A stretch of 64,000 nt of DNA from an uncultured Candidatus Poseidoniales archaeon. Its GTDB lineage: Archaea; Thermoplasmatota; Poseidoniia; Poseidoniales; Poseidoniaceae. Location of the stretch: contig CAZTGO010000005.1 of assembly GCA_964613395.1 (NCBI GenBank), positions 336-64,335 on the forward strand. Reading direction: 5' to 3'. Within the stretch, counting starts at the first letter, position 1, and each line of letters begins with the position of its first letter. Below, in pieces: positions 4,479-58,186 of the stretch. A model generated the notes under the pieces. That model did no database searches, was not told where the DNA came from, and saw only the letters and a program-made list of their open reading frames with translations. Made by a program: the position numbers and the translations under genes.

Positions 4479-7400
4479 TTACTTTTGTCTCTCGAGCCAT
4501 TGGTCGCCGTAATGTATCCATTGCTCCATCGTCCAACCCGCAGGAAGACCTCCAGGTGGAAGCGGTGGCCCGGCATTTGCTTGCACAGGTTGTTGAGCCT
4601 GTGGAATCTGAGGAACACTCTTTCCCGCCGAAGGAGGCATTACATTCGGTAATGTCGCCGGAGGCATTCCTGCTGGTGGAAGCCCCTTAGGTACCTGAAA
4701 GGCAGGTGGAGGCATCGAACTTGGTAGCGATGCCATGCCTGGCGGGAGATTTTTGGGTACACCCGTTGGTGCAATGGGAACGTCCATCGATTGCAAAATT
4801 GCTTGGGCAATTTCGTCTTTGCTCACTTCTGCACTTGCTGTTTTGTTGATTGCATGATCAATATCAAGTGCCTCTTCCCTTCGAGCGTCGAGATGTTCAG
4901 GGTGGCCGTGCATATCTGGCAACCCAAGAGCAGAATCATCTGAAATTAATTCGCCTGATTTTTTCATTTTACGAGCCAATATCACCACGACACCTAGGAA
5001 AATGGCTGCGATTGGCACGCTCACATACACAGGCAAATCTTGGAAGAATCCGGAATCTCCACCTGCTCCATCCGTTGTCAATTCAAGGATTAACGTCATT
5101 GTTTCACCGGTTTTGGTAGTGAGATTTACGTGCAGAAAACCAATGGCAATAGAGGCCCCTTCTTTAGGCGATACTGTAAGTTCAATTTCTACTTCATCCC
5201 CAATTGCTAAATTTTCAACGGAGGATTCCGAAGACGATATGCTCCAATCGGTCCTCACTTCGTCATCTTTGTCAAGCACTACGAATGAAATATCCCCTGA
5301 TAGAGGGACATTACCATCGTTACGAAGAATGAGTGTTGTACGTTCTGAGTCATCAGCATTCATGAGTTGGAACGGTTTATCTCCAGGTTGTTCTAGTGAT
5401 AAATTTCCATACATCGAACTCAGCACACCAACAGTTGTATTTACCGAACTTATGGTTGTACGGCCCAAACTTGTTCCAGTAACAAAGACCTGTAAATTGA
5501 ATGATTCATCAGCGATACTAGCTCCGGCAGGCGGCAAGATGCCAATTCGAACAACACCGGAATCTCTAGGTTCCAAATAATTGATTGGATTTGAAAACCC
5601 GATTGTCCATCCATCAGGTGCTACATTGTTCGACCATTCCAAATTGAGCGGTGTATTTCCTACATTCGTTACAGTGTACTCGCCAAATGTGTAGCCATCC
5701 GAAATTTTGGTCATGATGTTTCCGCTGGCAGGTCCGAGTAAATCCAATGCTAGTTCGTCTTTAACAACGAGTTTCGTCGAATTGCTTCGATAATTTGACG
5801 AAGATTTCTCGGTGCGTATGGTAAAGGTGTTTTCATCTCCTTCATCAGCAGCCTCTGGTACACCAAAGAGAAGTTGAACCACTTTTGTTTCACCCGCAGC
5901 AATGGTGAGAGATAACTGTCGAGGGTCGTCTCGACCATTTTCGGAGAGTTGAGCAATCCACGATTCAAAGGCTGAGATGACCCTAACAGTGAGGGCAATT
6001 TCCCGGTTACCTAGATTCTCAATTGTCAAATTCATGTAGATAAATTGGCCGGAATCTACTGCAACATCGTCTTCTAAGGTCGAAGGCCCGAGGTATCCAT
6101 CATCATTGCTTAGCCTCACCTTGTAATCATCGAATGGGTCCACTGTGACTTGGACAACCTCGGTGTGATTCATTGAGGAATCTGTAAGCGAGGTGACATA
6201 ACAAGTCACGCTATCGACAAATCCTGCGGTTGGCAAACCATTTGCCACCGGTGGAACGACGATACGAATGGCCATAGGTAGGAACTCATGTAGATCAAGT
6301 GGTTCAAAGTCAAGTCGAGAAGAGTTAGAATTCCCAAGCATGATTTGCCAGCGGTTTTCTGATTCACAAAGAACTGAATACTGGGCTGGTGAATTTCCAA
6401 TATTTTTCACTGAGACGGAAAACATAACGGAATTACCCGGTACTGCCCGAAGGTCATTTGTTCCCGCTGAAGCGATCAGTACATCGTGGAATGTCGGCAC
6501 TTCAAGCGTTACGCGTTGCGTATGTGCTACTGTTGGTTGGAATTCGTAACGAACGGAAATGTCAATCACATATGTTCCTGCACGAATATATCTTGGAGAT
6601 TCCGGGTCTGAAAAATCAGCATCCAAATCAAGTAGTTCGAGGTCGATGAAATAGGAGTCGTTTTCGGTTCCCTGTGCAGACATCAACACATTATCGTCTT
6701 TCGAAAAGGTTCGTTGCCATGCATCGATTGAAGGTTCGAGTAGATCTGGACGTTCAGAATTTGGCATTTGAACCATTGATGCAGATATGTCAACCGATTG
6801 ATTTCCAGTTCCTTCGTGAAGAACGACCAGTGGCAAGGTCACCAAAGGTCCATCAGTAACATCGACGGTGATTTTGGAATTGTTTTCCCGCTCACTTTGA
6901 GTTTGAGGAATAGTCCCATCATCGTTTGCTATGAGGACTCGAACACCGAGTGCCATCACTTCGACATCGATGTCGTAGACGTTGTTGTTTGAACCATTTG
7001 TTTCGTCATTGATTTCATCCACTTGACCCATAACATCAACTGAAAGGCGAAGAGAATGTACACCTGTGGTCGAGAATGAATGGTAAATCGTCATTGAATC
7101 TATCCCACCTGGCGATACAGATGACCTGTTTGCTTGAAGCAACGTCTGACCAGTTGTGAGGTCTTCAAATTTGATCATATGTGAACCAGAAGCAGCTGTG
7201 CCTTGATTACCATACGCAACCGAGATTGAGATGACATCGTTTCGAAGTGGATTTGTTGAAGAAAGCACAACACTTCCGTCATAGGTAACGAGGTCAGCAA
7301 TGGTGATTGGAGACGCAATTGCGCTCATTACAAGGGAGAATTTTTGTGTGACTCCGCCCTTGTGTTCTACACGAAGAACCCAGTTATCTTGTCCTGAAAT

Positions 7401-9452
7401 GACGCCAGGCTTGATTTTAATTCGTTCAACATTGTTGAGTGAATCAGCACTACCTCCTGTTGTCGAAACGCCATTTTGGAACACGTTGCCGAGGTAGACT
7501 TGCCCAGAAGGACCTTCGAGAATTAAGTTGAGGTCGTTCACAAGTCGAGATTGCGTTTGTTCGGCGTTTGCACTTCCAGCCTCGTCTGACCAGGCGAGGG
7601 TGATGTCAACCCCTTCATTCATATCCATAATAAATGGATAGGAGAGGGAAAAGCCGGGACGAATGGTCTGCTTATCGTCATAATATTGGTCAAGAACTGT
7701 TGAGCCAGATGTCGGCATGATGGATTGTTCAAGATTGATTTGGCCCCATCCTTCGTTATCGTTTGGAATATCCTGTGTTCCTAAATCAGTAGCACCATTG
7801 ATGAGAACCGCCTTGACGAGTGACCCTGAAGGAGTGAAGATACTCTGCTGTTCTCGGAGATATTCACGAACCAATGCCCCTACACCAGACGCAACAGCAG
7901 TCGCTTGAGAAGTCCCTGACAATGTCATGTACAATGCTGCCCCGTTTGAGTGGAAACCTGTTCCACAGGAAGTTCCAGAAACAATGCTCGATTCCTCTGG
8001 TCGACCTGAGCAAATATTCACTCCTGGAGCAACGAGGTCTGGTTTGATGCGTCCATCCAATGTTGGTCCTTCACTTGAGAACGAGGCCACATCACCCTCT
8101 GCTGCACTTCCACCTGCTCCTGTTGTTGAGGCTCCAATTGAAATCACATTTTTGGCTGTGCCTGGTGAAGTCACTTGTGATGACCCCTGACCACCTCTAT
8201 CCCCGACTGAAAAGAAGGGAATCATGTCAGGATAATCATTCATGAACAGATCAACGCTACGGGCGTCAGCGGTGTACTGTCCGAAATTACCATTGATACC
8301 CCATGCATTGACCGCCACTCTTGCAGTTGCAGTTTCTGCATCTTTGAGCATGTCATAAATTGAACCTAATCGGCCGAAAACACCTGTTGGGTCGTGCTCT
8401 AAGGCGTACATCACAAGTTGTGCACCAGGTGCAACGCCCTTGACCGATGAATCATTGGTCCCGTCACCAAGTACTGTGAGAGCAATATGAGTGCCATGCC
8501 CTGTGTTTTTATCTGCTGGTGAGGAGTCGAGTCCAAATTGTGTGTAAATCGCAATAACGCGGCCGTCGATGTCTGGATGGTCACGGTCGAGTCCTGTATC
8601 TGTGATGGCAATCGTTTCACCACTCCCATCCAAAGTAAATGTGGCGTTGTTGATCACACCTTGGACGCCTGCAATGCTGACTGCATTTGCATTGTGAACT
8701 TCGAGGTCGAAACCAGTCTCCGTCCATATGATTCGTCCATCGTATGCTATTCTTTTTAGCACTTGGAAATACGATGTTGTGTCGGTTGAAAGCGTACAAA
8801 ATGTTGTTCCACACATGACTGCAGTAGCACCACTCGAAAGAAGATCAACGACGAGTAAATTCATTCCTTCATTAGAAACATCTGGTGCGGGAATAAAATT
8901 GAGCACCTCGACTGTAGATGAGCGAGTATCCAAAACTTCTGGGTGGAGTCGCCATTCCGGTTGCATAGAGCCAACCCACCGAACTCGTTCATCGCTGGAT
9001 AGGTCACTAACGAATGTTGTTGACTCTTGTGGTGCTCGAACGAGCCAAACTTCGTTTGAAATAAATTCAAGCGGTGTAAATTCATATGTATACTTCAACT
9101 GATTGAGAATCTCTCCGTTTCGTTGATTGAGTTGGAGAAGATACAAACCGGTGAATTTTCCGTCGTTTTCTCTTGGAAATGTATTCACCGTTGGCTCACT
9201 TTGAATGACTGGGTCGAACTGAACAGAGGCCAGAGAAACTATACCATTTGGCTCCATGAGAGAAATTTGACTCTCAATCGGTTCTTGTAACATGGTCCAA
9301 GGTTTTGCATCTTCATGAGAAGGTGGTGCAGATTGCACATCGTAATCTTGTGAAATTTCTTCTGGATTTTCCAAAGAAAAAGAAGCGTATGGTTGAAGTA
9401 AAAACAATACCGAGAAGAAGACCACAACACCTCTCAATCGTTGCATGTGCAT
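4479..9452 (-). CDS. Giant membrane-anchored subtilisin-like (S8) serine protease with CARDB-like stalk repeats and a cytoplasmic Pro-rich tail
   Basis: Signal peptide VVVFFSVLFLLQPYASFS. S8 triad motifs AITDTGLDRDHPD (Asp), GHGTHIALTV (His) and LSGTSQATAVASG (Ser). A P-domain-like segment follows (LAWSDEAGS...LNNVERIKI...NWVLRVEH). Repeated beta-sandwich modules carry x-N-x-G-N motifs (VKNIGNSPAQY, IENLGNREIAL, VTNVGNTPLNL, LRNDGNVPLSG). Single TM helix VSVPIAAIFLGVVVILA, then a 164-aa tail (nt 4482..4973). Confidence 0.9.
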   Translation of the reverse strand: MHMQRLRGVVVFFSVLFLLQPYASFSLENPEEISQDYDVQSAPPSHEDAKPWTMLQEPIESQISLMEPNGIVSLASVQFDPVIQSEPTVNTFPRENDGKFTGLYLLQLNQRNGEILNQLKYTYEFTPLEFISNEVWLVRAPQESTTFVSDLSSDERVRWVGSMQPEWRLHPEVLDTRSSTVEVLNFIPAPDVSNEGMNLLVVDLLSSGATAVMCGTTFCTLSTDTTSYFQVLKRIAYDGRIIWTETGFDLEVHNANAVSIAGVQGVINNATFTLDGSGETIAITDTGLDRDHPDIDGRVIAIYTQFGLDSSPADKNTGHGTHIALTVLGDGTNDSSVKGVAPGAQLVMYALEHDPTGVFGRLGSIYDMLKDAETATARVAVNAWGINGNFGQYTADARSVDLFMNDYPDMIPFFSVGDRGGQGSSQVTSPGTAKNVISIGASTTGAGGSAAEGDVASFSSEGPTLDGRIKPDLVAPGVNICSGRPEESSIVSGTSCGTGFHSNGAALYMTLSGTSQATAVASGVGALVREYLREQQSIFTPSGSLVKAVLINGATDLGTQDIPNDNEGWGQINLEQSIMPTSGSTVLDQYYDDKQTIRPGFSLSYPFIMDMNEGVDITLAWSDEAGSANAEQTQSRLVNDLNLILEGPSGQVYLGNVFQNGVSTTGGSADSLNNVERIKIKPGVISGQDNWVLRVEHKGGVTQKFSLVMSAIASPITIADLVTYDGSVVLSSTNPLRNDVISISVAYGNQGTAASGSHMIKFEDLTTGQTLLQANRSSVSPGGIDSMTIYHSFSTTGVHSLRLSVDVMGQVDEINDETNGSNNNVYDIDVEVMALGVRVLIANDDGTIPQTQSERENNSKITVDVTDGPLVTLPLVVLHEGTGNQSVDISASMVQMPNSERPDLLEPSIDAWQRTFSKDDNVLMSAQGTENDSYFIDLELLDLDADFSDPESPRYIRAGTYVIDISVRYEFQPTVAHTQRVTLEVPTFHDVLIASAGTNDLRAVPGNSVMFSVSVKNIGNSPAQYSVLCESENRWQIMLGNSNSSRLDFEPLDLHEFLPMAIRIVVPPVANGLPTAGFVDSVTCYVTSLTDSSMNHTEVVQVTVDPFDDYKVRLSNDDGYLGPSTLEDDVAVDSGQFIYMNLTIENLGNREIALTVRVISAFESWIAQLSENGRDDPRQLSLTIAAGETKVVQLLFGVPEAADEGDENTFTIRTEKSSSNYRSNSTKLVVKDELALDLLGPASGNIMTKISDGYTFGEYTVTNVGNTPLNLEWSNNVAPDGWTIGFSNPINYLEPRDSGVVRIGILPPAGASIADESFNLQVFVTGTSLGRTTISSVNTTVGVLSSMYGNLSLEQPGDKPFQLMNADDSERTTLILRNDGNVPLSGDISFVVLDKDDEVRTDWSISSSESSVENLAIGDEVEIELTVSPKEGASIAIGFLHVNLTTKTGETMTLILELTTDGAGGDSGFFQDLPVYVSVPIAAIFLGVVVILARKMKKSGELISDDSALGLPDMHGHPEHLDARREEALDIDHAINKTASAEVSKDEIAQAILQSMDVPIAPTGVPKNLPPGMASLPSSMPPPAFQVPKGLPPAGMPPATLPNVMPPSAGKSVPQIPQAQQPVQANAGPPLPPGGLPAGWTMEQWIHYGDQWLERQK
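4482..4547 (-). other. C-terminal tail peptide LPAGWTMEQWIHYGDQWLERQK (copy 1 of the shared motif)
   Basis: Hand translation of the reverse complement gives GGT CTT CCT GCG GGT TGG ACG ATG GAG CAA TGG ATA CAT TAC GGC GAC CAA TGG CTC GAG AGA CAA AAG. It aligns without gaps to the terminal peptide at 35094..35159. Confidence 0.8.
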
Positions 9453-15175: not shown

Positions 15176-17632
15176 ATGCGGTGGGTAAACGTCATACTCA
15201 TTCTCATTGTTTTAACCCCGCTGCTATCAACATTACACGATATGAATGTCGTTGCTGAATCTCAGGATTTCACAAGTGTAGGTCCAAATTCAATGATTAT
15301 ACATCAAAATGAAGAAAAGTCCAGTTATGTCACTATTCATAACACTCGGGGCGAATACCAAAATTTCACAATTGAGTTGTATTCGATCGATGAACCTCTT
15401 GAAGTCGTCAATTTACCGCTATCAGAGATTCTTGTGAACAACCATCTCAAACAATTTCAAATCGGATACTATGCACCTTCGAACGCTTCATTTGGAACAT
15501 ATAGCGTAATCCTTCAAATTTCGAGCAATATCGAATCTGTTGCACCACAATTTTTCTATCTCAACATCACAGTAGCACCATATTCAAACCTCGATTTTTG
15601 GGTCGGTGAAGAATCCGATTTATTGGTTGATGGCGGCATTCGGACATCTGTGGCTGTGAATATTACAAACAATGCGTCCCTCCAAGATGTTGTAACATTT
15701 GACCTTGGTGCAAATGCAAATTGGCAATGGGGGTGGGTGATGACAACGGTCGAAAACAGCTCAGCAATAATTACAATGGAACCAGGGTCACTGCATTATG
15801 TGTATTTTTGGATTGATGTCCCAATGGTGCAGGACGCGATGCCACTATCGGGAACAGGGCCCAAATTTACGCTAACTGCAACTTCAAGTTTAGATTTTGA
15901 AACCACTACATGGGATTTAAACTTGAAAATGAGCACCTTCAGAAATGTCAGCATCGACCGAAGCGATGAGAACATTATTCTCGCACCTGGACAAGATGGG
16001 CGATTGAAAATTGATGTGAGAAACAATGGGAATATCGCCAACAAGATGAACATTACACTTCAAGCAATCGATGAAGATGGTAACGACATTGTTGACATTC
16101 CAGCCTCGGATAGATTCAATGTTGATGGATGGACGATTGCACTTTTTGGTGGTCTCGAGGATATTGAGATTCAACCGAATGCAACGAGGGTGTTGGAAAT
16201 TGGTTTCCAGTCCCCGTATGAATTCGATGGCGATGTTCATGTTCAATTGCAAATTTTCCCCAGCGGTGCGAAGGAAAGAAAACAAACCATCGATGTAACT
16301 GCGTCGATTGAAAGAACCAAAGATCTTGAAAGTACATATTCCACAAGTGGTTGTTTGAATCTCCTCCCTTCAGAATCATGCACAAACAGTATTTCGATCA
16401 CAAATCTGGGGAATGCAAGAGACACCTATGTTCTTCGACAATCCGAACCAGATGACATCGTCGATGTATCCCTTCCAACTGATTCACTCACCATCGTGAA
16501 TGATTTCAGTGATTCATTCGAAAACATTGTCTTCACTGCAAAAAATGATTCAATTGCTTTTGTTGAGGGCGTTATCGAAATTGAAATTCTTGACGATGCT
16601 TTCGAAATCTCGGATTTGATTCGAATACCTTACAAAATTGGACCAAGAGTGCTATGGAATTTTTCGAACGTGACAGAATCCATCGATGATAAAGGAATGA
16701 TGAGTATCCAAATGAATGTGAGAAATGACGGAAACGCCATCGATGGACTTCTTGTGCAACTTCGTTCTAGTCATAACACTGAAATGGCATTCATTCCTCC
16801 ATTTATCGCTGAAGTTGAAGAAGGTGTTGAAAATCCTCGTTCGTTTGAAGTCAATGAAATTCCTTTGGGTTATAATTTCACCATCGAGGCATGGGTACAA
16901 TTACCTATGGATCAGTCTTCCAATGGTACCGTTTACATCAACACTACAATTCGCTCAAAGTTTGCTCCAGAGATTGAATTTGTCCATATGAGTACAGGTG
17001 ATTACCTTGGCATTCCTTGGCAACCTGAACCAAAGGAGGAAGATAAATTCACACTTCCAGAATTTTTTTCGACATCTGTGTTGTACCTCAAAGCCTGGTC
17101 GGGTTTTATCGTGACAGTATTGTTCTCCGGCCTTATCATCTACAAAGCAGTCCTTGATCGGAATAAGCGATTAGAAGAACAAAAAGCACTAGAGATTCCA
17201 TTCGAAGAAAAAACCACTGAAACGGATGCAGATTGGCTAGCTAAATTTCAACGCAAAGAAGTGCAAGAAGATAATTCTCAAAATACAGAAGTTCCAAAAG
17301 ATGCATTTGAGACGATGTTTCGCATGAGGGCCCAACCCAAAGAGGTGGCACAACCGATAGATAGGGATGTAAAAGAACAATCAACAATGGTGTTGCAGCA
17401 AGGAGAACTTGAACGTAGTAAACATCAAGCAAACCGAATTCTCGATACGATTCAACAACAAGGTGTTGCAATGCCACATCCTAACAACAAGGATTTGAAT
17501 GTTCAAGAATTCAACACAGAACGAACACAACGGCATGATACGCAAAATTTGCTACAGCCGGAAGGAAGTCCACACGAATCTCCGAATGATGCGGTGCAAT
17601 TACCTGAAATGATTGACCTCGACGAATTATGA
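15176..17632 (+). CDS. Large surface protein with CARDB/S-layer-like beta-sandwich repeats, C-terminal TM helix and charged cytoplasmic tail
   Basis: Signal peptide MRWVNVILILIVLTPLLSTLHDMNVVA. Repeat motifs are VAVNITNNASL, IDVRNNGNIANKM, ISITNLGNARDTY and MNVRNDGNAIDGL. TM helix AWSGFIVTVLFSGLIIY, followed by a tail of about 170 aa rich in K/E/Q. Confidence 0.8.
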   Translation: MRWVNVILILIVLTPLLSTLHDMNVVAESQDFTSVGPNSMIIHQNEEKSSYVTIHNTRGEYQNFTIELYSIDEPLEVVNLPLSEILVNNHLKQFQIGYYAPSNASFGTYSVILQISSNIESVAPQFFYLNITVAPYSNLDFWVGEESDLLVDGGIRTSVAVNITNNASLQDVVTFDLGANANWQWGWVMTTVENSSAIITMEPGSLHYVYFWIDVPMVQDAMPLSGTGPKFTLTATSSLDFETTTWDLNLKMSTFRNVSIDRSDENIILAPGQDGRLKIDVRNNGNIANKMNITLQAIDEDGNDIVDIPASDRFNVDGWTIALFGGLEDIEIQPNATRVLEIGFQSPYEFDGDVHVQLQIFPSGAKERKQTIDVTASIERTKDLESTYSTSGCLNLLPSESCTNSISITNLGNARDTYVLRQSEPDDIVDVSLPTDSLTIVNDFSDSFENIVFTAKNDSIAFVEGVIEIEILDDAFEISDLIRIPYKIGPRVLWNFSNVTESIDDKGMMSIQMNVRNDGNAIDGLLVQLRSSHNTEMAFIPPFIAEVEEGVENPRSFEVNEIPLGYNFTIEAWVQLPMDQSSNGTVYINTTIRSKFAPEIEFVHMSTGDYLGIPWQPEPKEEDKFTLPEFFSTSVLYLKAWSGFIVTVLFSGLIIYKAVLDRNKRLEEQKALEIPFEEKTTETDADWLAKFQRKEVQEDNSQNTEVPKDAFETMFRMRAQPKEVAQPIDRDVKEQSTMVLQQGELERSKHQANRILDTIQQQGVAMPHPNNKDLNVQEFNTERTQRHDTQNLLQPEGSPHESPNDAVQLPEMIDLDEL

Positions 17633-33459: not shown

Positions 33460-33810
33460 ATGAACATGAGCGACCATGACGATGATCATGAATTGGTTGT
33501 CCAATACCCCACAAATGAAAAAAAATCGATCACCAATAGAATCGTTTCTACGTTAAAAACCATTTTTCATGAAATTACCTTTGGGGTAGGGACATGGGGG
33601 GCAATGCGGCCAATGTTCACGGCTGTTTTGGCCGGAATTCCATTTCTTTTCCTTGGACAACACTTCAACAAGGAGCACGGTAAAGCAAGGGATTGGACCC
33701 TTTTGCAAATTCCACTTGCTCTCACCGTTGTCCTTTGGATTGGACTTTGGCTTTTCTCCATTTTTGATGCATGGAAAACCGCTACAGGAATTGTTGCAAC
33801 TTCAAACTAA
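33460..33810 (+). CDS. Small membrane protein (2 predicted TM helices), function unknown
   Basis: Acidic, His-rich N-terminus MNMSDHDDDHE. TM segments MFTAVLAGIPFLFLG and IPLALTVVLWIGLWLFSIF. Its 3' end overlaps the convergent metalloprotease gene by 4 nt. Confidence 0.5.
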   Translation: MNMSDHDDDHELVVQYPTNEKKSITNRIVSTLKTIFHEITFGVGTWGAMRPMFTAVLAGIPFLFLGQHFNKEHGKARDWTLLQIPLALTVVLWIGLWLFSIFDAWKTATGIVATSN

Positions 33811-34595
33811 GGCTTCCATAATTGGTCTGTTGGTTGTATCTTTTCATTTTTCATATCACTTAGGTCTGCAAGGTCATCGGAGTCAAACTCATTTGGTAAA
33901 TCACCGGTGATGAAATTCATCAGTGATGTCGACTCAATGGCCCAATACATGACAGAATCTTCGTTGTTCGAATGACCAGGATGATCCGAATCTTCATGCG
34001 GTCTTGGAGATTCATACACAAGGTTAACCAAGCCTAAGAGATGGCCGACCTCATGAACAACAACGCTATTTTCTACATCTTCTGCTGAAGGCCTCCCAAA
34101 GAAGCCTTCTGCCTCCTCAATACTATCTTTGAAGATGGCGATTGTTGATCCATCTACAGCTACGCCTAGAACAGAATCATCGACATATGTTCCAGACGGA
34201 AAAATGAGTTGCCAATACAACGTTGAAGTGCTATGAGGGTGCCCTTCTTTTAGTTTCCAGCCCTGGTCCCTTACATCATCTGCACTCCAAGAATCGATTG
34301 AAAATGTGGCTTCAATATAATTGAATTTCACACCTGATGGCTTATCACATACATCCAAAATTCTTTCTTCAAGCATGGTTAAACTCGAAGATTCTGGGCG
34401 ATAACCCGATTCAAAAACAATCTCAAATTCGAGACTTTTATGTTGATCAGAACGTAAGCAAGCCATCGTCAATGAACCCGGAATCCCATGGTTTTCCAAG
34501 TCAAGTACTTCTTTGATTGAATCAGTCAGACAACCTGAAAGACTCGTAGAGATGATGAAGAAAGACATCAAAAAAGCAGTCGATAGCCTCTTCAT
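33807..34595 (-). CDS. Metzincin-like zinc metalloprotease, probable lipoprotein
   Basis: Signal peptide with a lipobox-like end, FFIISTSLSGC. Zinc motif VVVHEVGHLLGL, a downstream HPGHS, and a possible Met-turn DSVMYW. Confidence 0.65.
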   Translation of the reverse strand: MKRLSTAFLMSFFIISTSLSGCLTDSIKEVLDLENHGIPGSLTMACLRSDQHKSLEFEIVFESGYRPESSSLTMLEERILDVCDKPSGVKFNYIEATFSIDSWSADDVRDQGWKLKEGHPHSTSTLYWQLIFPSGTYVDDSVLGVAVDGSTIAIFKDSIEEAEGFFGRPSAEDVENSVVVHEVGHLLGLVNLVYESPRPHEDSDHPGHSNNEDSVMYWAIESTSLMNFITGDLPNEFDSDDLADLSDMKNEKIQPTDQLWKP

Positions 34596-34631
34596 AGATT
34601 GTGCTGCATACTGGTCTTAGAAAAATCTTCG

Positions 34632-35078
34632 TCACCAATCATCGGGAATCTCTAGAGGCGAAAACAACTGACCAGGACTTTGAACATTCGACAACTGTGT
34701 GCGAATAACTTGTTCCCATTGACGTAGCATCAATAGAGCACGGTCAAGTTCAATGTTGATTTCAATGAGCGTAACACGAATGAGCGTATCGAGGATATCC
34801 ATTCGTTGAGCATCGGACCGTTCCAATAGTTTGTCTAGGGAAAATTGCTGAGCATTGTTCGTCGAAACCTCCCTAATTTCCCAAGGCTCTGTCAATTCGT
34901 TAGGTAGTTGTTGATTGGAAGTCAAAGCATACTCTTGAAGTGAAGAAAGCAATTGTTTAATGTGCTTTTGAAAAACAAGAGAAACCTCAAACAAAGGCAT
35001 TTTGAGTTGTTGAAGTAAGTTCACAACTCGCTCTTGAAAGACCACCATTCCATCAATAGTGGGCGTATCTTTGGTCAA
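34632..35078 (-). CDS. Hypothetical helical cytosolic protein
   Basis: 148-aa ORF with a TTG start at 35078; the alternative ATG at 35048 gives MVVFQER. It begins 12 nt downstream of the giant gene 35091..40451 on the same strand. No TM helix and no motif I recognise. Confidence 0.45.
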   Translation of the reverse strand: MTKDTPTIDGMVVFQERVVNLLQQLKMPLFEVSLVFQKHIKQLLSSLQEYALTSNQQLPNELTEPWEIREVSTNNAQQFSLDKLLERSDAQRMDILDTLIRVTLIEINIELDRALLMLRQWEQVIRTQLSNVQSPGQLFSPLEIPDDW

Positions 35079-35090
35079 AGGATGACCTCA

Positions 35091-38000
35091 CTACTTCTTC
35101 GAATTAATGTACTGCCAACCATATGCATTCCATTGCTCCATTGTCCAGCCCTCTGGAAGACCAGTTGGTGGAACAGGTGGTGCAGCAGGCATTGGCGCAG
35201 GTGCCGCAGGAGCGGCTTGTGGAGGAGGAATCGTTGGATTTGGTGGTGATTTGATTTCTGGGACAATTTTGTCACCATCATCCATTGACTCAACGACATC
35301 TGCTGTTTGGTCAGATTCATCTTCAAATGATTCCGCAATGAGCCTTCGACGCATGACCATCGACCATACACCAAAGGAAATTGATCCCAATGCAATGATG
35401 AAGAGTACGATGCTAAAGATCCCTTCTGACGCTTGTTGTGAAAGTGCTTCACCATCGCGTATCGTTTGTTCTTTAACAATGAGTGGGTCAACTGTCATCC
35501 TGTCCATCTCAACACCATCAACGAGTACGAGAACTCGATATTCGATGCTTTCACCTGCAACAACATCAGCTGTATCAGATAGCGTTGCGATGAATTCTTG
35601 ATTGGATGTCACGTCAAGGGTAATGACATCAGTTTCAGACCAAAAACCACCTTCAATCAGTCGTTGTAACGATAATTGAACTTGGCCCGTGCCTCCAACA
35701 TTGACTCCTTTGACAATCATACTTGACATCTGGCCTTGGGTAGGACTCGGGTTCGACCATTGCAGCGATGAACTTTCAGCCTGCAGGTCAACCATCGGAC
35801 CAATAAGTGCCAGTGGCCAAGATGCAAATGGTTCAATCATCGAATTACCATTGGTATCAAATGGATTACCTGCTTCATCTGAACCTGAAATCCAAACATC
35901 AACTGTATATGATTGGAGTAATGTCGTAGCACCTGCGTCCGTCAAATCAAGAGAACCTGTCCAAAAGAATTGGTCTCCGAATGGTGTAATCTCAGGTAGC
36001 AAAACGCTGCCTCTCGAAATTTCTGCCTCTCCTGCCTTCACTCTGTAGTGAAGCACTGCAGGTTTATCGAAATCGAAACCATTTTCATCTCTCGTCTCAA
36101 GTTGTACAAGCAAATCATCGGCATTCCCAATCGAGAGAGGCATATTGGGTTCAACACCGCCAAGAGAAATACCGGCTATTGTAGGTTGGTCACTATCGAC
36201 TGCTAGGCGCACTCTTGGAACAAATGGTGATTGATCTTCTGCTAAGCCTGGCAGGTCATCTAGCTTTAGTCGCAAATCAAGATGACCTGAACGTACAGAT
36301 GGAACAAGCAAATCAAGAGAAAATTCTCCATCTAACCTTGTCGAAGTTTCCCATAGGAATTCAAAGTCCCCGAATGTAACATCAAACGCACCGGCTGGAG
36401 CTGGGGTTTCATCCTCTGAGAATAAGACTCTACCTGTAACTCGTAGTGCCTGTCCTGCACCGATGATGGTCTCATAGTTTTCGTCATTGTAGTGATTCAC
36501 ACCATTTCGAAGTTCAACTGCCCGGATGTGACCGCTCTCGGTATCGAATCTGAAGTCATTATCTAAACTCCACCAATCTTCGCCTAAACCGTATTCAAGT
36601 TCGTGACACGGTGTAATTTCACCTACATTGCAAGGACGGTCGGTAATGAGTATTTTTGGAATGAAATGCGACTCTCCGTTTGTGTCAAAAATTTCAGGGA
36701 AGGTCCATGTTAATTGAAATCTTGCTTGAATCAAAATTTTGCTCTCATTTAATGGGTCAATTTCGACTGTTGAGTAAATGTTTGATACTGCAATGTTGGT
36801 TGAACCAGACGCCATCACCGCACGAGGTAGACCGTTGTCATCTTCTTCCATACTGATGAATATTGATGATTCGTCATCTTCGAAATCACCGCTGAGTGTG
36901 AGTTGAATGTATTGGATATCTTTCCAAGTATTCCGATCGCTAACAACGAGTTGTGCAGTGTAAAGAATACCTGGGTGAAGAGGCTGGTAATCATCGTGTC
37001 CGACAATTGTTGAATTGCCGATATCGACGCTGGGTTGGAATTCTTGACGAATCACATAAGTTACGAGATCTGCATCCCAGTCAGGAACTGTCTCTCCAGG
37101 CCTGTATCCACATGATACGCTACTTTGTGGACAAACTGGACCTCCACCCATTGCGACCTGATTGTTTTGACCATCTTTTCCAGAGACATAGAACGATACT
37201 TTTTGTCCGTGCAATAACATTGAATCATCGATCACCCCTTCAAAGATATTCAAGCCACCAACTTGAGTATCAGGTGAACCAATACTCATGAGTTCATATT
37301 CGTCTGCATTTGGCAACCCATCAAAATTGTAGTCAGTGCATCCGATTGCATCGCTTGCCCTACAGCCTATCCAATAGTGGAGTGAGATAGAATTTGGTGG
37401 ATCAACGGAATCTTGTATCGTGATTGATATAGGTTGTCCACCACCGGTCGCAGCGTGTTGTTCTGACCCATCAATTGGCGTCGCTTGAATGACAAGTGGA
37501 GAATTACCATCGAGAACAAGGCGAATGGAATTGTACGAAGGATTCGCAAACACCGAACCGTTCACCAGGTCAACAGCTTGTACGTAGAACACCATTCCTC
37601 CGGGGTGAGATTCTGTCGGTGAAGTGAATGTAAAGTTGTATTCACCGAAGGCAGGATTTACCTCTTCGAAGAGGACCATAGGCTCTCCAATCGGGTCACC
37701 ATCATACGTCACATTTTGACCAATGATACGGATTGAGAAAGACCCTGCTTCTGGCATAAGTTGAGAACTTTCAAAATGAATACCTCCAGTAAATGTCAAA
37801 TTATATCCGCCACGTACCCAGTCAAAAGAATACAACTCTCGCCCAGTTTCTTCAAAGACTCGCAACCCATCAAGTTGAATGTCATTTTCAATGACGAGAT
37901 CCATGTCTGAAGTTATCCATCCGTTTACTGCTACACCAAGACTATCTTCAACCGTAACAACTGCTTCAGCATCGGACTCATCATTCCAACTCCAGTTAAC

Positions 38001-40529: not shown

Positions 40530-43500
40530 TCAAGTTTCTCGCGAGTCATACCGAATTGGTGAGGATTGGCCACGTACACCATCTTCTTCATCGTCACGTA
40601 CTTCAAACCAATCAACGAGCCAATCGCCATCCGTGTCCCAGTTCATTGGACTGCTACCCTCAGCGAGATGGTCATCATCGAAATCTAGCAGGTACCATCC
40701 AAATTCGTGTTCGCCAACATTTCGATCGGGAGCTGTATGTGGTGAAAATTCATAATAAATCTCCCATGCATCTGTCTTATTCCCTGCAAGAATTATTTCG
40801 TCATCAGAAGCATTGAGTTCAAAGAAACTCACATCATTATCGTTGACGATATACCCGTATTGGTAATCTTGTCCAGCAAATTTATCCATTTTGAGATAGT
40901 TCAAAACAAGTTCATTAGACTGACCGATACCAAGCACTGCTTTCCTCAATTGCCACCACTCCGTAACTAAATTCCCATCAACAGTTAAACCAGATAATCT
41001 CACTGCATTTGGTGACGAGTATTCTTGAAGTGTAAAGGCGTAAAATTCTTGGAAATTTGTATATGGCTCGTATGTACAACCAACTCCGGTGCAGTCCCAG
41101 TTTCCGTCTTGGTCTGGGTCTTGATTCGCATCATTTGGGTCCGCTGGGTCGAGGGTGAACCACGTGTATTCCAAATCAGGTCGTTGAAGTTGCCCAGTAT
41201 CTGAATTGAGCGACAACGGTAAGCAAGATGATGTGGATGTAGTACAGGGACCTCCAGTTCCCGGGTCAATCCATTGAACTTGAATTTTTAAGAAAGAACT
41301 GAAATTATCGTTGGATTCATTCCATCCTAACTTGTATTCATACCAATCTGGCAACATATCTCCATCAGAATCATTATCGCTTGGATTGCTTCCATACTTG
41401 AACACTTCACGACCATCAGAATAATTGTAATCTTGAACATGCGAAAGAACAACGCCATTTTCCACAGTCGTGATGAATGTAACGCTATCACCATCGGAAT
41501 CATTGAGGTCAGGCCTCGTGTTGTTCATCCATTCCATCTGATTGGTGAAAGGTAGATCACCAATACCGGGTTGAATTTGTTGCGAAGAAGGCGTAAACAC
41601 ACGATTGTCCCAAACACCTTGAGTTGCCGGTTGGTCAAAGGTCGTTCGCCCATACCACCCATCATGGTCACCATCATAATTTATGTCAAATGGATTGAGT
41701 GGATTTGAAGACCAGTGGTTGATTGTCGTTGTGTCGTTCATTCCAAAGATTGCGTAACAATATTCCCAACCATCAGGAATACCATCACTGTCTGAATCCG
41801 GGTGTGTTGGGTCAGCGACTCCTCTTAATGACCGATTGAAATTTCCAGAATCGAGTGAATTGATTTTTTCCATTCGATCAAGCGAATCCGGGCCTTTCGC
41901 AATAAAGTCTTGATACAAAGCAAGTTGTGATTGCAAAATCGAGTAACCCAATTCTTCTTGATAAGCGAGCATGGCATCTTCCCCGAAATCGATGATGCCA
42001 AGTTCAAGTGGCACCGTCGCCCTCATGTCGAATTTACCCCACGTTCTCGACTCCCATTCACGTAAATTGGAAAACAGTTCATCTTGTGAGATGTCTCCAT
42101 CTCCATTGCAATCATAACTATCATCGTCTGAGTCAAGGTACACATCTCCATCGATGAGAGGATTCATACTCCATCTATTTTCATCCAAATCCCATGATGT
42201 AAACCAATATTCAAATCCGTCGTACATTCCGTCGCCATCTGTATCGCTTGACGTTGGGTCAGTCATCCCTTGTAGAACAGAAATGAATGCATTCGGAGGC
42301 TCGCCGGATTGCCAAGCATTGAAATCATCAAGGAGGCGTTTTCCACGTGTGTTCTTTGAGATGAGCATGTTGAAAATTCGTTGTGCTTTTTCGGTCGGCT
42401 GTTGAAGATCGCCATCAATATGGAGGAGAGGTGCATCACTCGGATGTTCGATTCCGTTATCGGGCTGCATTGTTGCGAGGGCAAACTCTTGTTTATCGAT
42501 AAGGCCGTCTTCGTCACCATCGAAATTTCCATCGTCTGGCACGAGTGGATTGAGCGTCCACACTTCAGCGGAAGAGTTCCACGCCGTGAAGAGCAACTCC
42601 AATCCGTCGAGCATCCCATCACCATCTGTATCGATGTTGTTTGGGTCTGTCGTCATACCAGATATATTTCGAACTCCTTCATCGATGAAACTACCGAATG
42701 AGGATGATGTTGGAATGCCCGGCCATTGTTGTAATGCGTAGGCTGTGCCAACAGTTGTCACGAACCATTGTGGAGAACTCCTGTTGCTCTGGATCTCAGA
42801 GAAGATTGGATCAATCGAATTGTACTCCTCCCAATTCGTCATACCATCATCATCTGCATCTTCCCAGCGGTCTTTCGAATCGAGGGGATTTAATGTCCAG
42901 CCATCATCGAGTAGATTCCATCGGGCAAACCAAATCTCCCATCCGTCTGGCATACCATCTGTATCCGAGTCAGAATCCCAAGGATTTGCAGCACCGATAC
43001 TGTATGTGGTTTGGCTGTTGTATAGTTCACTAAATGCCCTGTCAGAAAACGTGTCTTCTGGTTCGCCGTAGTCGTAGATGTGGTCGAACAAATTTGTTTC
43101 AAATGCCATGGGGAATTCTTCGCCGTCAAACGTACCATTGCTCACAAACAAGTCACTTCGGAGATGATATTCGAGGTAGTTGACAAATTGCTCGTTCAAT
43201 GTCAATACGCCATCATGGTTGATGTCGTATCCATCACCATCAGGGTTGCCGAGAACATCGGTTGAATTGAGTGGATTGACACCATTGTATTCGGGCGACC
43301 ATGTACAACGTCCGTTTGATTCCCAGCCATCAGGGAGCGAATCTCCGTCTGAATCGATAGAATTTGGATCTGCAACACTCCAATTTGCTACAGCTTCAGG
43401 AACTTCTCCGAAATTTTCAATCAACTCACCCTCCAAGCCTGCAAGCCTCACGAGTGACCATTGATACTCACAAAGGTTGGCAAGCCCATCGCTATCTGCA

Positions 43501-47294: not shown

Positions 47295-47318
47295 ATCCAA
47301 CGAAGGACTGGCGTGAGT

Positions 47319-50626: not shown

Positions 50627-51099
50627 CCTTAGATTCAAAATTCACACGTGATGAATCAGGTGCTGCTACTGAACTCGGGTATATCTTCACATTTCTTCTC
50701 GGTGTGCTCCTCATGACAATGTTCAGCATTTGGGCATGGGGAATCGAAACATCCACTCGAGAGCGTTGGAATGATGAAGCAATTATTGCCAACATGGACG
50801 ATATCGTTGAAGCTGTTGAGCGTGCAAATGAAGCAAGTCGAATTGATAATTCAACATATGCCGAATGGGTCTCATGGAGACCAACGGAAGCTGACGAATC
50901 ATTGATGACACTCAAGTTGGAAACAAATACGATTGAACTCGTTGATGAGTCAGAAAGGGAAGGATACACTGTTCAACATTCGGGAACCGGGAATGCAGAG
51001 AACAATGGTACACTCGCCCTGGCAGGTATCACAACAATTTGGGTTGTGCTTGAAGATGGTCAAATCTACCTTTCAGCGGACAGACCGTATTTTTCTTAG
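50623..51099 (+). CDS. Small (158 aa) pilin-like protein with class III-type N-terminus
   Basis: N-terminus MTLDSKFTRDESGAATELGYIFTFLLGVLLMTMFSIWAWGI (nt 50647..50745). Of the three genes, this size is closest to a structural pilin. Confidence 0.6.
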   Translation: MTLDSKFTRDESGAATELGYIFTFLLGVLLMTMFSIWAWGIETSTRERWNDEAIIANMDDIVEAVERANEASRIDNSTYAEWVSWRPTEADESLMTLKLETNTIELVDESEREGYTVQHSGTGNAENNGTLALAGITTIWVVLEDGQIYLSADRPYFS

Positions 51100-58022: not shown

Positions 58023-58186
58023 ACTTACACCTATCTCTGCCATCTCAACAGAGAATATAATACTGTGCCTCATTTGTCAATTTAAGAATATCAAAAATGT
58101 GTGAAAGTATCAAATTTTATGCAAGAAATCGGCGATATCTTTCCACATAACTTCAATAAATAATGAAATAGAGGTGGTAATTCGAT

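What the first reader, a model, noticed from the sequence alone, without database searches (positions are those of the whole stretch)
4482..4973. Portable cytoplasmic tail (acidic stretch, poly-Pro spacer, terminal GLPxGWTMEQWxxYGxQ peptide) on a giant S8 protease
Seen: the protease ends ...PPLPPGGLPAGWTMEQWIHYGDQWLERQK and the unrelated 1786-aa protein at 35091..40451 ends ...PPVPPTGLPEGWTMEQWNAYGWQYINSKK. The last ~23 residues align without gaps. In both proteins the peptide is the extreme C-terminus and follows the same order: single TM helix, acidic segment, proline-rich spacer (PPPAFQVPKGLPPAGMPPATLPNVMPP versus PPNPTIPPPQAAPAAPAPMPAAPPVPP). The ectodomains share no obvious similarity. 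Inference: with an N-terminal signal peptide and one C-terminal TM helix, the tail should be cytoplasmic. It would then be a modular sorting, docking or anchoring signal, for example for a sub-membrane scaffold or a dedicated export/processing machine. That would differ in kind from PGF-CTERM/archaeosortase or LPXTG signals, where the recognised motif lies on the extracytoplasmic side of the C-terminal TM helix. I do not recognise it as a named domain; the LPxGW start is WW-like but the peptide is too short for a WW fold.
Basis: partly seen in the sequence, partly recalled or inferred. Interest (0 to 1): 0.75.

Follow-up and report, generated by a model that had tools for sequence, protein, structure and literature searches.

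The report
Shared cytoplasmic end-tag on archaeal surface proteins
Many unrelated giant surface proteins of the abundant, uncultured ocean archaea called Marine Group II end inside the cell with the same undescribed ~26-residue tryptophan-rich peptide, which probably plugs them all into one still-unknown internal partner.

Summary
The S8 protease (4479..9452, -) and the unrelated 1786-aa protein (35091..40451, -) both end in PPLPxxGLPxGWTMEQWxxYGxQ(W/Y)L. A profile of this motif finds 633 cluster representatives among 1.84 billion proteins. A strict DNA pattern finds at least 119 loci in about 100 species-level genomes. All real hits are Poseidoniales (Marine Group II), from both of its families.

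The motif nearly always lies 16-24 residues from the C-terminus. It follows a fixed order: signal peptide, large ectodomain, one TM helix, a basic cluster, an acidic stretch, a Pro-rich stretch, then the motif. It sits on at least 9 ectodomain families, including S8 subtilases, PKD/CARDB, arylsulfotransferase-like and RCC1 proteins, and several with no Pfam match.

The positive-inside rule places the tail in the cytoplasm. Pfam, NCBIfam, PDB, Foldseek and the literature hold no match. The WW resemblance covers only 11 columns. AlphaFold2 predicts a confident terminal module (pLDDT 80-88: a Pro-rich strand plus a 15-residue helix) after a low-confidence linker.

The most likely function is docking to a shared cytoplasmic partner. 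This is inferred, not shown, and no partner was identified. I rate it a new variant of prokaryotic C-terminal surface-protein signals.

The parts
4479..9452 (-). Host 1: a 1657-aa type-I surface S8 subtilase. It belongs to a Poseidoniales ortholog family of 20 members that all carry the same tail.
   Evidence: ORF and translation. Peptidase_S8 E=1.5e-45 plus CARDB. Ectodomain cluster 2. Synteny with adk / Rpr2 / YhbY / CitMHS is conserved across loci.
9372..9452 (-). N-terminal signal-peptide-like segment of the protease (MHMQRLRGVVVFFSVLFLLQPYASFSL).
   Evidence: Hydropathy 1.91 over residues 9-27, preceded by Arg residues. The cleavage site was not predicted with a dedicated tool.
7743..8627 (-). 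S8 catalytic domain (residues 276-570) with D285, H319 and S515.
   Evidence: Pfam PF00082 matches residues 276-570. Motif positions.
4974..5030 (-). Single C-terminal TM anchor of the protease (VYVSVPIAAIFLGVVVILA, residues 1475-1493).
   Evidence: Kyte-Doolittle 2.65. There are 0 K/R in the 15 aa before it and 4 in the 15 aa after it.
4572..4973 (-). Cytoplasmic linker of the protease: basic stop-transfer cluster RKMKK, a mildly acidic stretch (residues 1501-1533), then a Pro-rich spacer (residues 1568-1607).
   Evidence: The general rule across 117 hosts is: first half of the linker 18% D+E and 6% P, second half 9% D+E and 21% P.
4482..4571 (-). Terminal module of the protease: GPPLPPGGLPAGWTMEQWIHYGDQWLERQK (last 30 residues).
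   Evidence: Profile hits. AF2 gives pLDDT 79-87 with a helix from M26 to Q40 of the 41-mer.
35091..40451 (-). Host 2: a 1786-aa type-I surface protein with no Pfam domain above threshold. Orthologs in L077 and L099 carry the same tail.
35367..35423 (-). Single C-terminal TM anchor of host 2 (GIFSIVLFIIALGSISFGV, residues 1677-1695), followed by WSMVMRRR.
35184..35366 (-). Cytoplasmic linker of host 2: RRR, an acidic stretch ESFEDESDQTADVVESMDDGD, then a Pro-rich spacer PPNPTIPPPQAAPAAPAPMPAA.
   Evidence: AF2 pLDDT is about 53-61 over residues 1-50 of the 102-aa construct.
35094..35183 (-). Terminal module of host 2: APPVPPTGLPEGWTMEQWNAYGWQYINSKK (last 30 residues).
   Evidence: AF2 gives pLDDT 82-88 with a helix at residues 87-101 of the 102-aa construct.

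Best explanation
What it is (shown). This is a lineage-specific C-terminal module restricted to Poseidoniales in every sample scanned. Its consensus is (A/G)-G-P-P-L-P-x-x-G-L-P-x-G-W-T-M-E-Q-W-x-(H/Y)-Y-G-x-x-(Y/W)-L-(D/E), followed by 3-8 variable residues and the stop codon. It closes the tail of single-pass surface proteins that have an N-terminal signal-like segment. The order of elements is fixed: large ectodomain, one TM helix, a K/R cluster, an acidic stretch, a Pro-rich stretch (32-145 aa in all between TM and motif, median 75), then the module. At least 9 unrelated ectodomain families carry it. Each family sits in its own conserved chromosomal context, so the association with each family is old rather than a recent shuffle.

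How it most likely works (inferred). After Sec export of the ectodomain, the TM helix and the basic cluster stop transfer and leave the tail in the cytoplasm. The acidic/Pro-rich stretch acts as a flexible, extended leash. The terminal module is a small ordered unit. A Pro-rich strand (PPLPxxGLP) and a Gly-Trp turn lead into a Thr-capped amphipathic helix (TMEQWxxYGxxYL), whose Trp/Tyr/Leu face and invariant Gly form a defined surface. This unit docks onto one shared, highly conserved cytoplasmic or inner-leaflet partner. In that way the cell's ecto-enzymes and adhesins would be tethered, positioned, retained or sorted by a common internal machine or scaffold. The partner is unknown.

The confidence of 0.55 refers to the docking mechanism. 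That it is a real, portable, cytoplasmic, lineage-specific module I hold at about 0.9.
For: Distribution:
- The profile of the 33-aa motif finds 633 cluster representatives at E<=1e-3 and 206 at E<=1e-10 among 1.84e9 proteins. The match is at the C-terminal end in nearly all of them.
- The strict DNA pattern finds at least 119 loci in about 100 species genomes. All are Poseidoniales, from both Poseidoniaceae and Thalassarchaeaceae. The two apparent exceptions are one chance hit (L040) and one mis-binned contig (L119).

Portability:
- There are 9 ectodomain BLAST clusters with different Pfam content: S8+CARDB, PKD/CARDB, TSP3/NHL, arylsulfotransferase-like, RCC1+ephrin-receptor-like, Ig_VWA7/NPCBM_assoc, and several with none.
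- Up to 3 host families carry it within one genome.

Topology: positive-inside statistics and signal-like N-termini.

Selection rather than duplication:
- The two window tails differ at synonymous sites.
- Variable positions are more alike within a host family (0.36) than between families (0.25).
- They are not more alike within a genome (0.28 vs 0.27, p~0.38). So there is no gene conversion. About 12 near-invariant positions are held fixed in every family and lineage, as expected for one common, specific binding surface or fold.

Order versus disorder: AF2 gives pLDDT 80-88 for the module in two independent constructs, with the same helix in both, against about 55 for the linker.

No existing model or structure explains it.
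Against: - No partner was identified. No neighbouring gene family is shared between host families.
- The AF2 models have only moderate overall confidence (mean pLDDT 76 and 69, pTM 0.45 and 0.34). I could not inspect coordinates, so the packing of the Pro-rich strand on the helix is my inference.
- Topology was not checked with a trained predictor.
- There is no expression or proteomic evidence that the tail survives in the mature protein.
- In one host family the module is internal, followed by a further 30-90 residues, so a free C-terminus is not required.
- The conservation statistics are partly circular at the positions fixed by my search pattern (PxGWTMEQW). They are not circular at PPLP, GL, YG and (Y/W)L in the DNA-pattern set, nor anywhere in the profile-derived set.
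Confidence: 0.55

Rival explanations
1. Interfacial membrane-binding helix. The Trp/Tyr-rich terminal helix folds back onto the inner leaflet of the membrane, for example to sense curvature or lipid domains or to cluster the proteins. No protein partner is involved.
For: The helix carries W, W, Y, (Y/W) and L on one side and is tethered near the membrane by a flexible leash. Aromatic residues favour membrane interfaces (general knowledge).
Against: The Eisenberg hydrophobic moment is 0.39 at mean hydrophobicity -0.10, which is below the surface-seeking boundary. Membrane-binding amphipathic helices usually conserve composition, not sequence. Here G, L, P, G, W, T, M, E, Q, W, Y and G are almost invariant, including polar E/Q and a Gly inside the helix. 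The conserved PPLPxxGLP strand has no role in this model.
Confidence: 0.13
2. Self-association module. The end-peptides bind each other as dimers or oligomers and so cluster different surface proteins into patches, with no separate partner.
For: It would explain why identical surfaces are kept on many different hosts. Small Pro-strand/helix mini-proteins such as the pancreatic-polypeptide fold are known to dimerise through their aromatic face (general knowledge, not tested here).
Against: Foldseek and PDB sequence searches found no related mini-protein.
Confidence: 0.15
3. Turnover or quality-control tag. The module is a degron or adaptor site read by a membrane-associated cytoplasmic protease or unfoldase (LonB, PAN/proteasome, Cdc48) to remove or regulate surface proteins.
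For: It has a C-terminal, exposed, cytoplasmic location. The largest host family lies directly next to lonB in at least 21 loci.
Against: The lonB synteny belongs to one host family only, and the other families have different neighbours. The extreme C-terminus is the variable part, and in one family the module is internal. A 26-residue near-invariant block is much larger than typical degrons (general knowledge).
Confidence: 0.08
4. Cleaved sorting or processing signal. The module is recognised once, by a dedicated export, processing or lipid-attachment machine, and is then removed. This would be analogous in role to PGF-CTERM/archaeosortase.
For: Its distribution looks like a sorting signal: many unrelated exported proteins, one lineage, a C-terminal position.
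Against: The recognised motif is on the cytoplasmic side, 32-145 residues after the TM helix. This is the opposite of all known sortase-type signals. No NCBIfam CTERM model matches. No candidate processing enzyme was seen next to the hosts.
Confidence: 0.07
5. Degenerate remnant of a WW domain, or a simple local tail duplication with no function of its own.
For: The LPxGW start resembles WW strand 1. The best PDB sequence match is the Salvador WW domain, but at E=0.24. hhalign gives probability 63% over 11 columns.
Against: None of 68 tails matches any WW model in Pfam. The protein ends 15-18 residues after the first Trp, so strand 3 and the second Trp-x-x-Pro cannot exist. AF2 predicts a helix where WW has strand 2. 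Order-wide conservation on at least 9 families, together with synonymous divergence, excludes a neutral duplication.
Confidence: 0.02

Closest known systems
C-terminal protein-sorting domains of prokaryotic surface proteins (PGF-CTERM/archaeosortase A, PEP-CTERM/exosortase, LPXTG/sortase, GlyGly-CTERM/rhombosortase)
   Same: A short conserved C-terminal signature, restricted to one lineage, shared by many unrelated exported proteins and combined with a single TM helix and a basic cluster.
   Different: In those systems the signature lies immediately before the TM helix, on the outer side. The basic cluster ends the protein, and the whole region is cleaved off. Here the signature lies 32-145 residues after the TM helix and basic cluster, on the cytoplasmic side. 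No NCBIfam or Pfam sorting-domain model matches, and no sortase-like gene is associated.
WW domain (PF00397)
   Same: The GLPxGW segment resembles the first strand of WW domains. The spacing GW-x8-G-x2-Y-[LV]-D echoes the Salvador WW2 domain.
   Different: Only 11 columns align and there is no Pfam hit. The second Trp and the terminal Pro are absent because the protein ends. The segment is predicted helical, not a beta-sheet.
Disordered linker plus conserved C-terminal docking peptide, as in bacterial FtsZ (C-terminal linker and C-terminal peptide that binds FtsA/ZipA/SepF). From general knowledge.
   Same: Architecture and logic: a compositionally biased, length-variable, poorly conserved leash ends in a short, highly conserved peptide that serves as the docking site for partners.
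   Different: FtsZ is a soluble cytoskeletal protein with one peptide on one protein family. Here the peptide is on the inner end of at least 9 families of membrane-anchored ecto-proteins. There is no sequence similarity.
Cytoplasmic tails of eukaryotic type-I receptors and adhesins (e.g. integrin beta tails binding talin/kindlin, PDZ-ligand C-termini), and the Pro-rich cytoplasmic tails of Mycoplasma cytadhesins that link to the terminal-organelle cytoskeleton. From general knowledge, not verified here (one search found no usable source).
   Same: A large ectodomain, one TM helix, and a short cytoplasmic tail whose conserved motif couples the surface protein to an internal scaffold. The Mycoplasma case is also a wall-less cell. 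Whether Poseidoniales have a cell wall or S-layer was not examined here.
   Different: No homology, an archaeal host and an unknown partner. The module is longer and far more strictly conserved than typical eukaryotic tail motifs.
Pro-strand/helix mini-proteins (pancreatic-polypeptide fold, Trp-cage). From general knowledge.
   Same: A Pro-rich segment, a tight turn, and an amphipathic helix with aromatic residues at i, i+3/4 and i+7. The size is about 30 residues.
   Different: There is no sequence or Foldseek match. Packing in the AF2 model could not be inspected, so this is an architectural analogy only.

Membership tests
WW domain (PF00397) | Matches the family profile | tested here: not met
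   No WW hit for the full proteins or the tails, nor for any of 68 tails at E<=10. The PDB profile search gives a WW domain only at E=0.24.
WW domain (PF00397) | Two conserved Trp 20-22 residues apart, a C-terminal Pro, and a three-stranded sheet of about 35 residues | tested here: not met
   The protein ends 15-18 residues after the first Trp. hhalign aligns 11 columns only. AF2 predicts a helix after GW.
Sortase-type CTERM sorting signals (PGF-CTERM, PEP-CTERM, LPXTG and others) | The signature motif lies directly N-terminal to the TM helix, and a basic cluster ends the protein | tested here: not met
   The motif lies 32-145 aa C-terminal to the TM helix and basic cluster in 117 hosts.
Sortase-type CTERM sorting signals (PGF-CTERM, PEP-CTERM, LPXTG and others) | Recognised by an NCBIfam/TIGRFAM sorting-domain model | tested here: not met
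   No NCBIfam model at E<=0.1 covers the motif in either tail.
Sortase-type CTERM sorting signals (PGF-CTERM, PEP-CTERM, LPXTG and others) | Co-occurrence with a dedicated sortase, archaeosortase or exosortase gene | not testable with these tools
   Whole genomes could not be read. No such gene was seen in the 8-kb loci.
Tail-anchored membrane proteins (Get3/TRC40 clients) | No N-terminal signal, and a single TM helix within about 30 residues of the C-terminus | tested here: not met
   A signal-like N-terminus is present in 54 of 60 complete hosts. At least 60 residues follow the TM helix.
Pancreatic-hormone (PP) fold | Sequence or structure match to PP-fold peptides | tested here: not met
   No Pfam, PDB-sequence or Foldseek match. 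Foldseek is weak at 41 residues, so only membership is rejected, not the analogy.
Peptidase S8 (host protein of the finding) | Profile match and an Asp/His/Ser triad | tested here: met
   PF00082 E=1.5e-45 over residues 276-570. DTGLD at 285, HGTH at 319, GTSQA at 513-517.
Type-I (N-out, C-in) single-pass membrane protein | N-terminal signal, one TM helix near the C-terminus, and positive charges on the C-terminal side | tested here: met
   Hydropathy and K/R statistics. A trained predictor (DeepTMHMM/SignalP) was not available.
Linker-plus-terminal-peptide docking module (FtsZ-CTP-like logic) | A compositionally biased, length-variable, low-confidence linker followed by a strongly conserved terminal peptide | tested here: met
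   Linker length 32-145 aa with an acidic-then-Pro bias. pLDDT is about 55 for the linker and 80-88 for the module. Conservation profile.
Linker-plus-terminal-peptide docking module (FtsZ-CTP-like logic) | A defined binding partner | not testable with these tools
   No multimer prediction or whole-proteome access was available. The neighbourhood analysis was negative.

The most novel reading that the evidence does not exclude
The module is the handle of a previously unknown archaeal system that couples the surface proteome to the cell interior. That system could be a sub-membrane scaffold or cytoskeleton, or a dedicated positioning, retention or sorting machine, in archaea of a phylum known for wall-less members. 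The module would be one word of a small 'code' of alternative cytoplasmic end-peptides. Other candidate words seen here are the acidic ...LLDDLDL-COOH end and the GWxWD....QWVPDP end on other giant surface proteins of the same window. No comparable cytoplasmic tail-peptide system shared across many surface-protein families is known to me in bacteria or archaea.
Probability: 0.3. Interest if true: 0.85.

Novelty: new variant of a known kind. Interest (0 to 1): 0.68.

Why it matters
Poseidoniales (Marine Group II) are among the most abundant archaea of the surface ocean. They have never been cultured. They are thought to live by degrading high-molecular-weight protein and polysaccharide with surface enzymes (PMC6336850, PMC9258230).

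This work shows that their giant ecto-proteases and adhesin-like proteins share one strictly conserved cytoplasmic end-piece. That gives three things:
1. A sequence tag that picks out the anchored surface proteome of these organisms in any metagenome.
2. The first hint that these cells organise, retain or regulate their ecto-enzymes from the inside through a common partner.
3. A concrete bait, a 30-residue peptide, for finding that partner without a culture.

For the study of protein-sorting signals, it adds a layout not seen in the sortase, exosortase or archaeosortase systems, with the recognised motif on the cytoplasmic side, after the TM helix and a leash. It also deserves its own entry in the domain databases.

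Tried and rejected
- Word-index protein search with the tail. It returned only 38-83-aa fragments. The one checked in its genomic context (P0005 in L001) is a frameshift-split gene call in a long-read assembly. The search was of no use for finding full-length hosts, and I replaced it with the exhaustive representative HMM search and a DNA-pattern scan.
- An exact look-up of the window protease in the assembly index found nothing.
- Pfam and NCBIfam on the tails gave nothing.
- A PDB sequence search and Foldseek on the AF2 model gave nothing significant.
- WW-domain homology was rejected.
- The viral-contig scan gave 0 hits, so there is no sign of use by viruses in that collection.
- The search for a partner by conserved gene neighbourhood was negative. 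Every recurrent neighbour is tied to a single host family.
- The test for within-genome homogenisation of tails (gene conversion, or lineage-specific co-variation with a partner) showed no signal: 0.28 vs 0.27, p~0.38.
- The membrane-seeking-helix idea was tested with the hydrophobic moment and is not supported.
- Literature searches for the motif and for Poseidoniales tail motifs found nothing relevant. A search for a citable Mycoplasma analogue failed.
- The hits labelled Gammaproteobacteria (L040) and Yoonia (L119) were examined. L040 is a chance internal match without the PPLP/YG context. L119 is a mis-binned Poseidoniales contig that shares lonB/MFS synteny.
Full report
OBSERVATION

The minus-strand ORF 4479..9452 encodes a 1657-aa protein. 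It has a Peptidase_S8 domain (E=1.5e-45, residues 276-570) and a CARDB domain. The subtilase triad motifs are visible at D285, H319 and S515. The finding's coordinates, 4482..4973, are exactly the 164 residues that follow its only C-terminal TM helix (residues 1475-1493). They end in GPPLPPGGLPAGWTMEQWIHYGDQWLERQK.

The 1786-aa ORF 35091..40451 (-) has no Pfam domain above threshold. It ends in APPVPPTGLPEGWTMEQWNAYGWQYINSKK after a TM helix at residues 1677-1695. The last 32 residues of the two proteins align without internal gaps, with 19 identities.

Both proteins have a signal-like N-terminus. After the TM helix, both have a basic cluster, an acidic stretch, a Pro-rich stretch and then the terminal peptide. 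A six-frame scan finds only these two copies in the window. The two DNA segments differ at many synonymous sites, for example CCG/CCT, GGT/GGC, ACG/ACA, TAC/TAT and CAA/CAG. The similarity is therefore maintained at the protein level and is not a recent duplication.

HOW WIDESPREAD IT IS

I searched a 33-column profile of the motif (alignment A3) exhaustively against 1.84 billion cluster representatives. It found 633 proteins at E<=1e-3 and 206 at E<=1e-10. In 131 of the 158 sequences I could inspect, the Gly of GW lies 16-24 residues from the protein's end.

I then scanned one genome per GTDB species for the strict back-translated pattern for PxGWTMEQW. By my estimate, assuming equal base frequencies, this pattern should occur about once by chance in 596 Gb.

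All hits come from Poseidoniales MAGs and single-cell genomes. Both families of the order are represented (Poseidoniaceae and Thalassarchaeaceae), and so is the original MG-II genome CM001443.1. There are two apparent exceptions:
- A 'Gammaproteobacteria' hit (L040) is internal to an ORF and lacks the flanking PPLP and YG signature, so it is a chance match.
- A 'Yoonia' contig (L119) shares lonB and MFS-transporter synteny with the Poseidoniales loci, so it is mis-binned.

No hit was found in the viral contig collection.

ANATOMY ACROSS THE FAMILY

In 108 of 121 genuine locus hits the stop codon comes 9-21 residues after EQW.

In 117 of 123 host ORFs a strongly hydrophobic 19-mer lies 32-145 residues (median 75) upstream of the motif. 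The six exceptions are short, truncated or frameshift-split ORFs.

The 12 residues after this TM helix hold on average 2.6 Lys+Arg, against 0.27 in the 12 residues before it. The count is higher after the helix in 107 of 117 hosts. Of the 117 hosts, 111 have no other strongly hydrophobic segment. Of 60 complete hosts, 54 have a hydrophobic h-region within the first 70 residues. By the positive-inside rule this is a type-I topology: ectodomain outside, tail in the cytoplasm.

Its first half has 18% Asp+Glu and 6% Pro. Its second half has 9% Asp+Glu and 21% Pro.

The conservation profile over 232 distinct tails gives this consensus: (A/G)-G-P-P-L-P-x-x-G-L-P-x-G-W-T-M-E-Q-W-x-(H/Y)-Y-G-x-x-(Y/W)-L-(D/E), followed by a variable end. 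Part of this is forced by my search patterns. The PPLP, GL, YG and (Y/W)L positions were not constrained in the DNA-pattern set. Nothing was constrained in the profile-derived set.

PORTABILITY

I cut the ectodomains of 106 hosts off at the TM helix and compared them all-against-all. They fall into 9 clusters. Pfam content of the clusters, where one was scanned:

- Cluster 2, which includes the window protease, 20 members: S8 subtilase + CARDB.
- Cluster 3: PKD/CARDB.
- Part of cluster 0: TSP3/NHL.
- Cluster 5: arylsulfotransferase-like propeller.
- Cluster 8: RCC1 repeats + ephrin-receptor-like repeats.
- Cluster 4: Ig_VWA7/NPCBM_assoc.
- Cluster 7: a 359-aa protein with no Pfam match.
- Cluster 6, which includes the window's 1786-aa protein: no match above threshold.
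- Clusters 0 and 1, the two largest: representatives mostly without any Pfam match.

Each host family sits in its own conserved gene neighbourhood. The S8 family lies next to adenylate kinase, Rpr2, YhbY and a CitMHS transporter, exactly as in the window. The largest family lies next to lonB. Another lies next to a 536-aa protein whose C-terminal sequence looks like a thermosome. So these are old, vertically inherited core genes.

Two further results fit this picture. At the 15 variable positions, tails are more alike within a host family (0.36) than between families (0.25). They are not more alike within a genome (0.28 vs 0.27, permutation p~0.38). There is no gene conversion. The invariant core is held by a constraint common to all families and lineages.

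COMPARISON WITH KNOWN FAMILIES

- No Pfam or NCBIfam model hits the tails. None of 68 tails scanned one by one hits any relevant Pfam family, even at E<=10.
- The best PDB sequence match is the second WW domain of Salvador at a non-significant E=0.24.
- A profile-profile comparison against a WW alignment that I built from remembered sequences aligns only the 11 columns around GLPxGW, with probability 63%.
- The proteins end before a WW strand 3 or second Trp could occur. WW membership is therefore rejected.
- Sortase-type CTERM signals place their motif before the TM helix and end with the basic cluster. Here the order is reversed and a long leash intervenes. That membership is rejected too.
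- Full-text searches for the motif string and for Poseidoniales tail motifs found nothing. A survey of lineage-specific archaeal families reports about 199 Poseidoniales-specific families, including peptidases, but no such motif (PMC9258230).

STRUCTURE PREDICTION

AlphaFold2 on the last 41 residues of the protease, with a 68-sequence alignment, gives a mean pLDDT of 76. The value is 55 for the first ten residues and 79-87 for residues 11-40. There is a helix from M26 to Q40. The preceding PPLPPGGLPAGW segment is non-helical but still confident.

A second run covered the 102 residues from the TM helix to the end of the 1786-aa protein. It gives pLDDT 53-61 for the first half and 82-88 for the last 30 residues, with the same helix.

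The Thr before the helix and the Glu three residues later form a classic capping-box pattern (read directly from the sequence).

I infer, but could not verify because no coordinates are returned, that the Pro-rich strand packs on the aromatic face of the helix, with the invariant helix Gly as the contact point. This is the logic of PP-fold and Trp-cage mini-proteins. Foldseek found no match, which says little at this length.

MECHANISM

The best-supported reading is a docking module on a flexible leash. The TM helix and basic cluster fix the tail in the cytoplasm. The acidic/Pro-rich segment is an extended spacer of variable length. The terminal 26-residue unit presents one invariant surface to a shared partner.

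The argument for a specific protein partner (or a specific fold plus partner) is the strict conservation of about a dozen positions, polar ones included. This holds across an entire order and across at least 9 host families, while everything around those positions drifts.

Rivals:
- An interfacial membrane helix is less likely. The hydrophobic moment is 0.39 at H=-0.10, which is not surface-seeking, and this model gives no role to the polar invariant residues or the PPLP strand.
- A degron for membrane LonB is suggested only by synteny with one host family.
- Self-association remains open.
- A cleaved sorting signal cannot be excluded without proteomics.

I found no partner gene. No neighbouring family is shared between host families.

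NOVELTY AND VERDICT

The function is still inferred.

I class it as a new variant of a known kind: lineage-specific C-terminal signatures shared by many surface proteins. The unprecedented part is the layout, with the motif on the cytoplasmic side after a leash. It has no homology to any described family.

It matters because it tags the anchored ecto-proteome of one of the ocean's most abundant uncultured archaeal groups, and because it offers a peptide bait for discovering how these cells handle that proteome from within.

Other giant surface proteins of the same window end in different conserved-looking cytoplasmic peptides. One host family adds a second, acidic end-motif after the module. 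This hints at a wider repertoire of such tails.

Noticed in passing
window 53637..58073 (-): A third giant surface protein (1478 aa, Beta_helix/Big_7, TM near residue 1363) has a cytoplasmic tail ending ...SQHPGWLWDAANNQWVPDPNYQQPQQ. This is a different Trp-rich end-peptide (GWxWD....QWVPDP) and may be a second kind of tail module.
   Followed up: no
window 15176..17632 (+); loci L029, L039, L042, L046, L058, L072, L079, L081, L110, L111, L116, L117: In the PKD/CARDB host family the GWTMEQW module is followed by a further 30-90-residue Q/P/T-rich linker and an acidic-hydrophobic end, ...LLDDLDL/F-COOH. The window's 818-aa signal peptide + TM protein ends ...EMIDLDEL-COOH without the GWTMEQW module. 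This looks like a second portable end-motif.
   Followed up: partly
L020, L042, L046, L079, L081, L110, L116, L117: The PKD/CARDB hosts occur as tandem paralogue pairs. Where both tail ends could be read, one copy has the plain tail and the other the extended ...LLDDLDL tail.
   Followed up: partly
window 33807..35078 (-); L077, L099: Two ORFs lie directly downstream of the 1786-aa protein. One is a 148-aa helical protein with no Pfam match. The other is a 262-aa protein with a lipoprotein-like N-terminus and an HEVGH zincin motif. Both are conserved in the same position next to its orthologs (46-56% identity), which suggests an operon.
   Followed up: partly
window 40530..46271 (-): A 1913-aa protein lies immediately upstream of the 1786-aa host. 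It is full of DxDGDGxPDGWE calcium-binding-type (TSP3-like) repeats, has a signal-like N-terminus, and has no C-terminal TM helix or tail. It might be a secreted partner held by its anchored neighbour.
   Followed up: no
L001 6720..10207 (+) and about 21 other loci: The largest host family (no Pfam domain) is always followed directly by the membrane protease gene lonB. In L001 the host gene is split into three gene calls (1017, 77 and 68 aa) by apparent frameshifts in a polished long-read assembly. This is why public protein sets hold many 40-80-aa 'proteins' that consist only of the tail.
   Followed up: partly
L119 (CAXRJJ010000022.1, labelled Yoonia sp.): This contig carries a genuine tail-bearing gene plus lonB and an MFS gene in Poseidoniales synteny. 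It appears to be an archaeal contig mis-binned into an alphaproteobacterial MAG.
   Followed up: yes
window 47313..51099 (+): Three consecutive genes (355, 749 and 158 aa) each start with a short charged segment followed by one hydrophobic helix. The first matches DUF7289. By my reading this is the look of archaeal pilin-like (class III signal peptide) proteins.
   Followed up: no
window 51096..53615 (-): An 839-aa protein with an N-terminal HTH, an AAA_16 ATPase domain and TPR repeats (a STAND/MalT-like regulator) sits between the pilin-like genes and the giant surface-protein genes.
   Followed up: no
L004 6633..7709 (+), L041 5024..6130 (+): The smallest full-length hosts (359-369 aa, no Pfam match) begin with a signal peptide followed by ...RDCAGSCH. 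This is a Cys-x3-Cys-His string that could be a metal or haem site.
   Followed up: no
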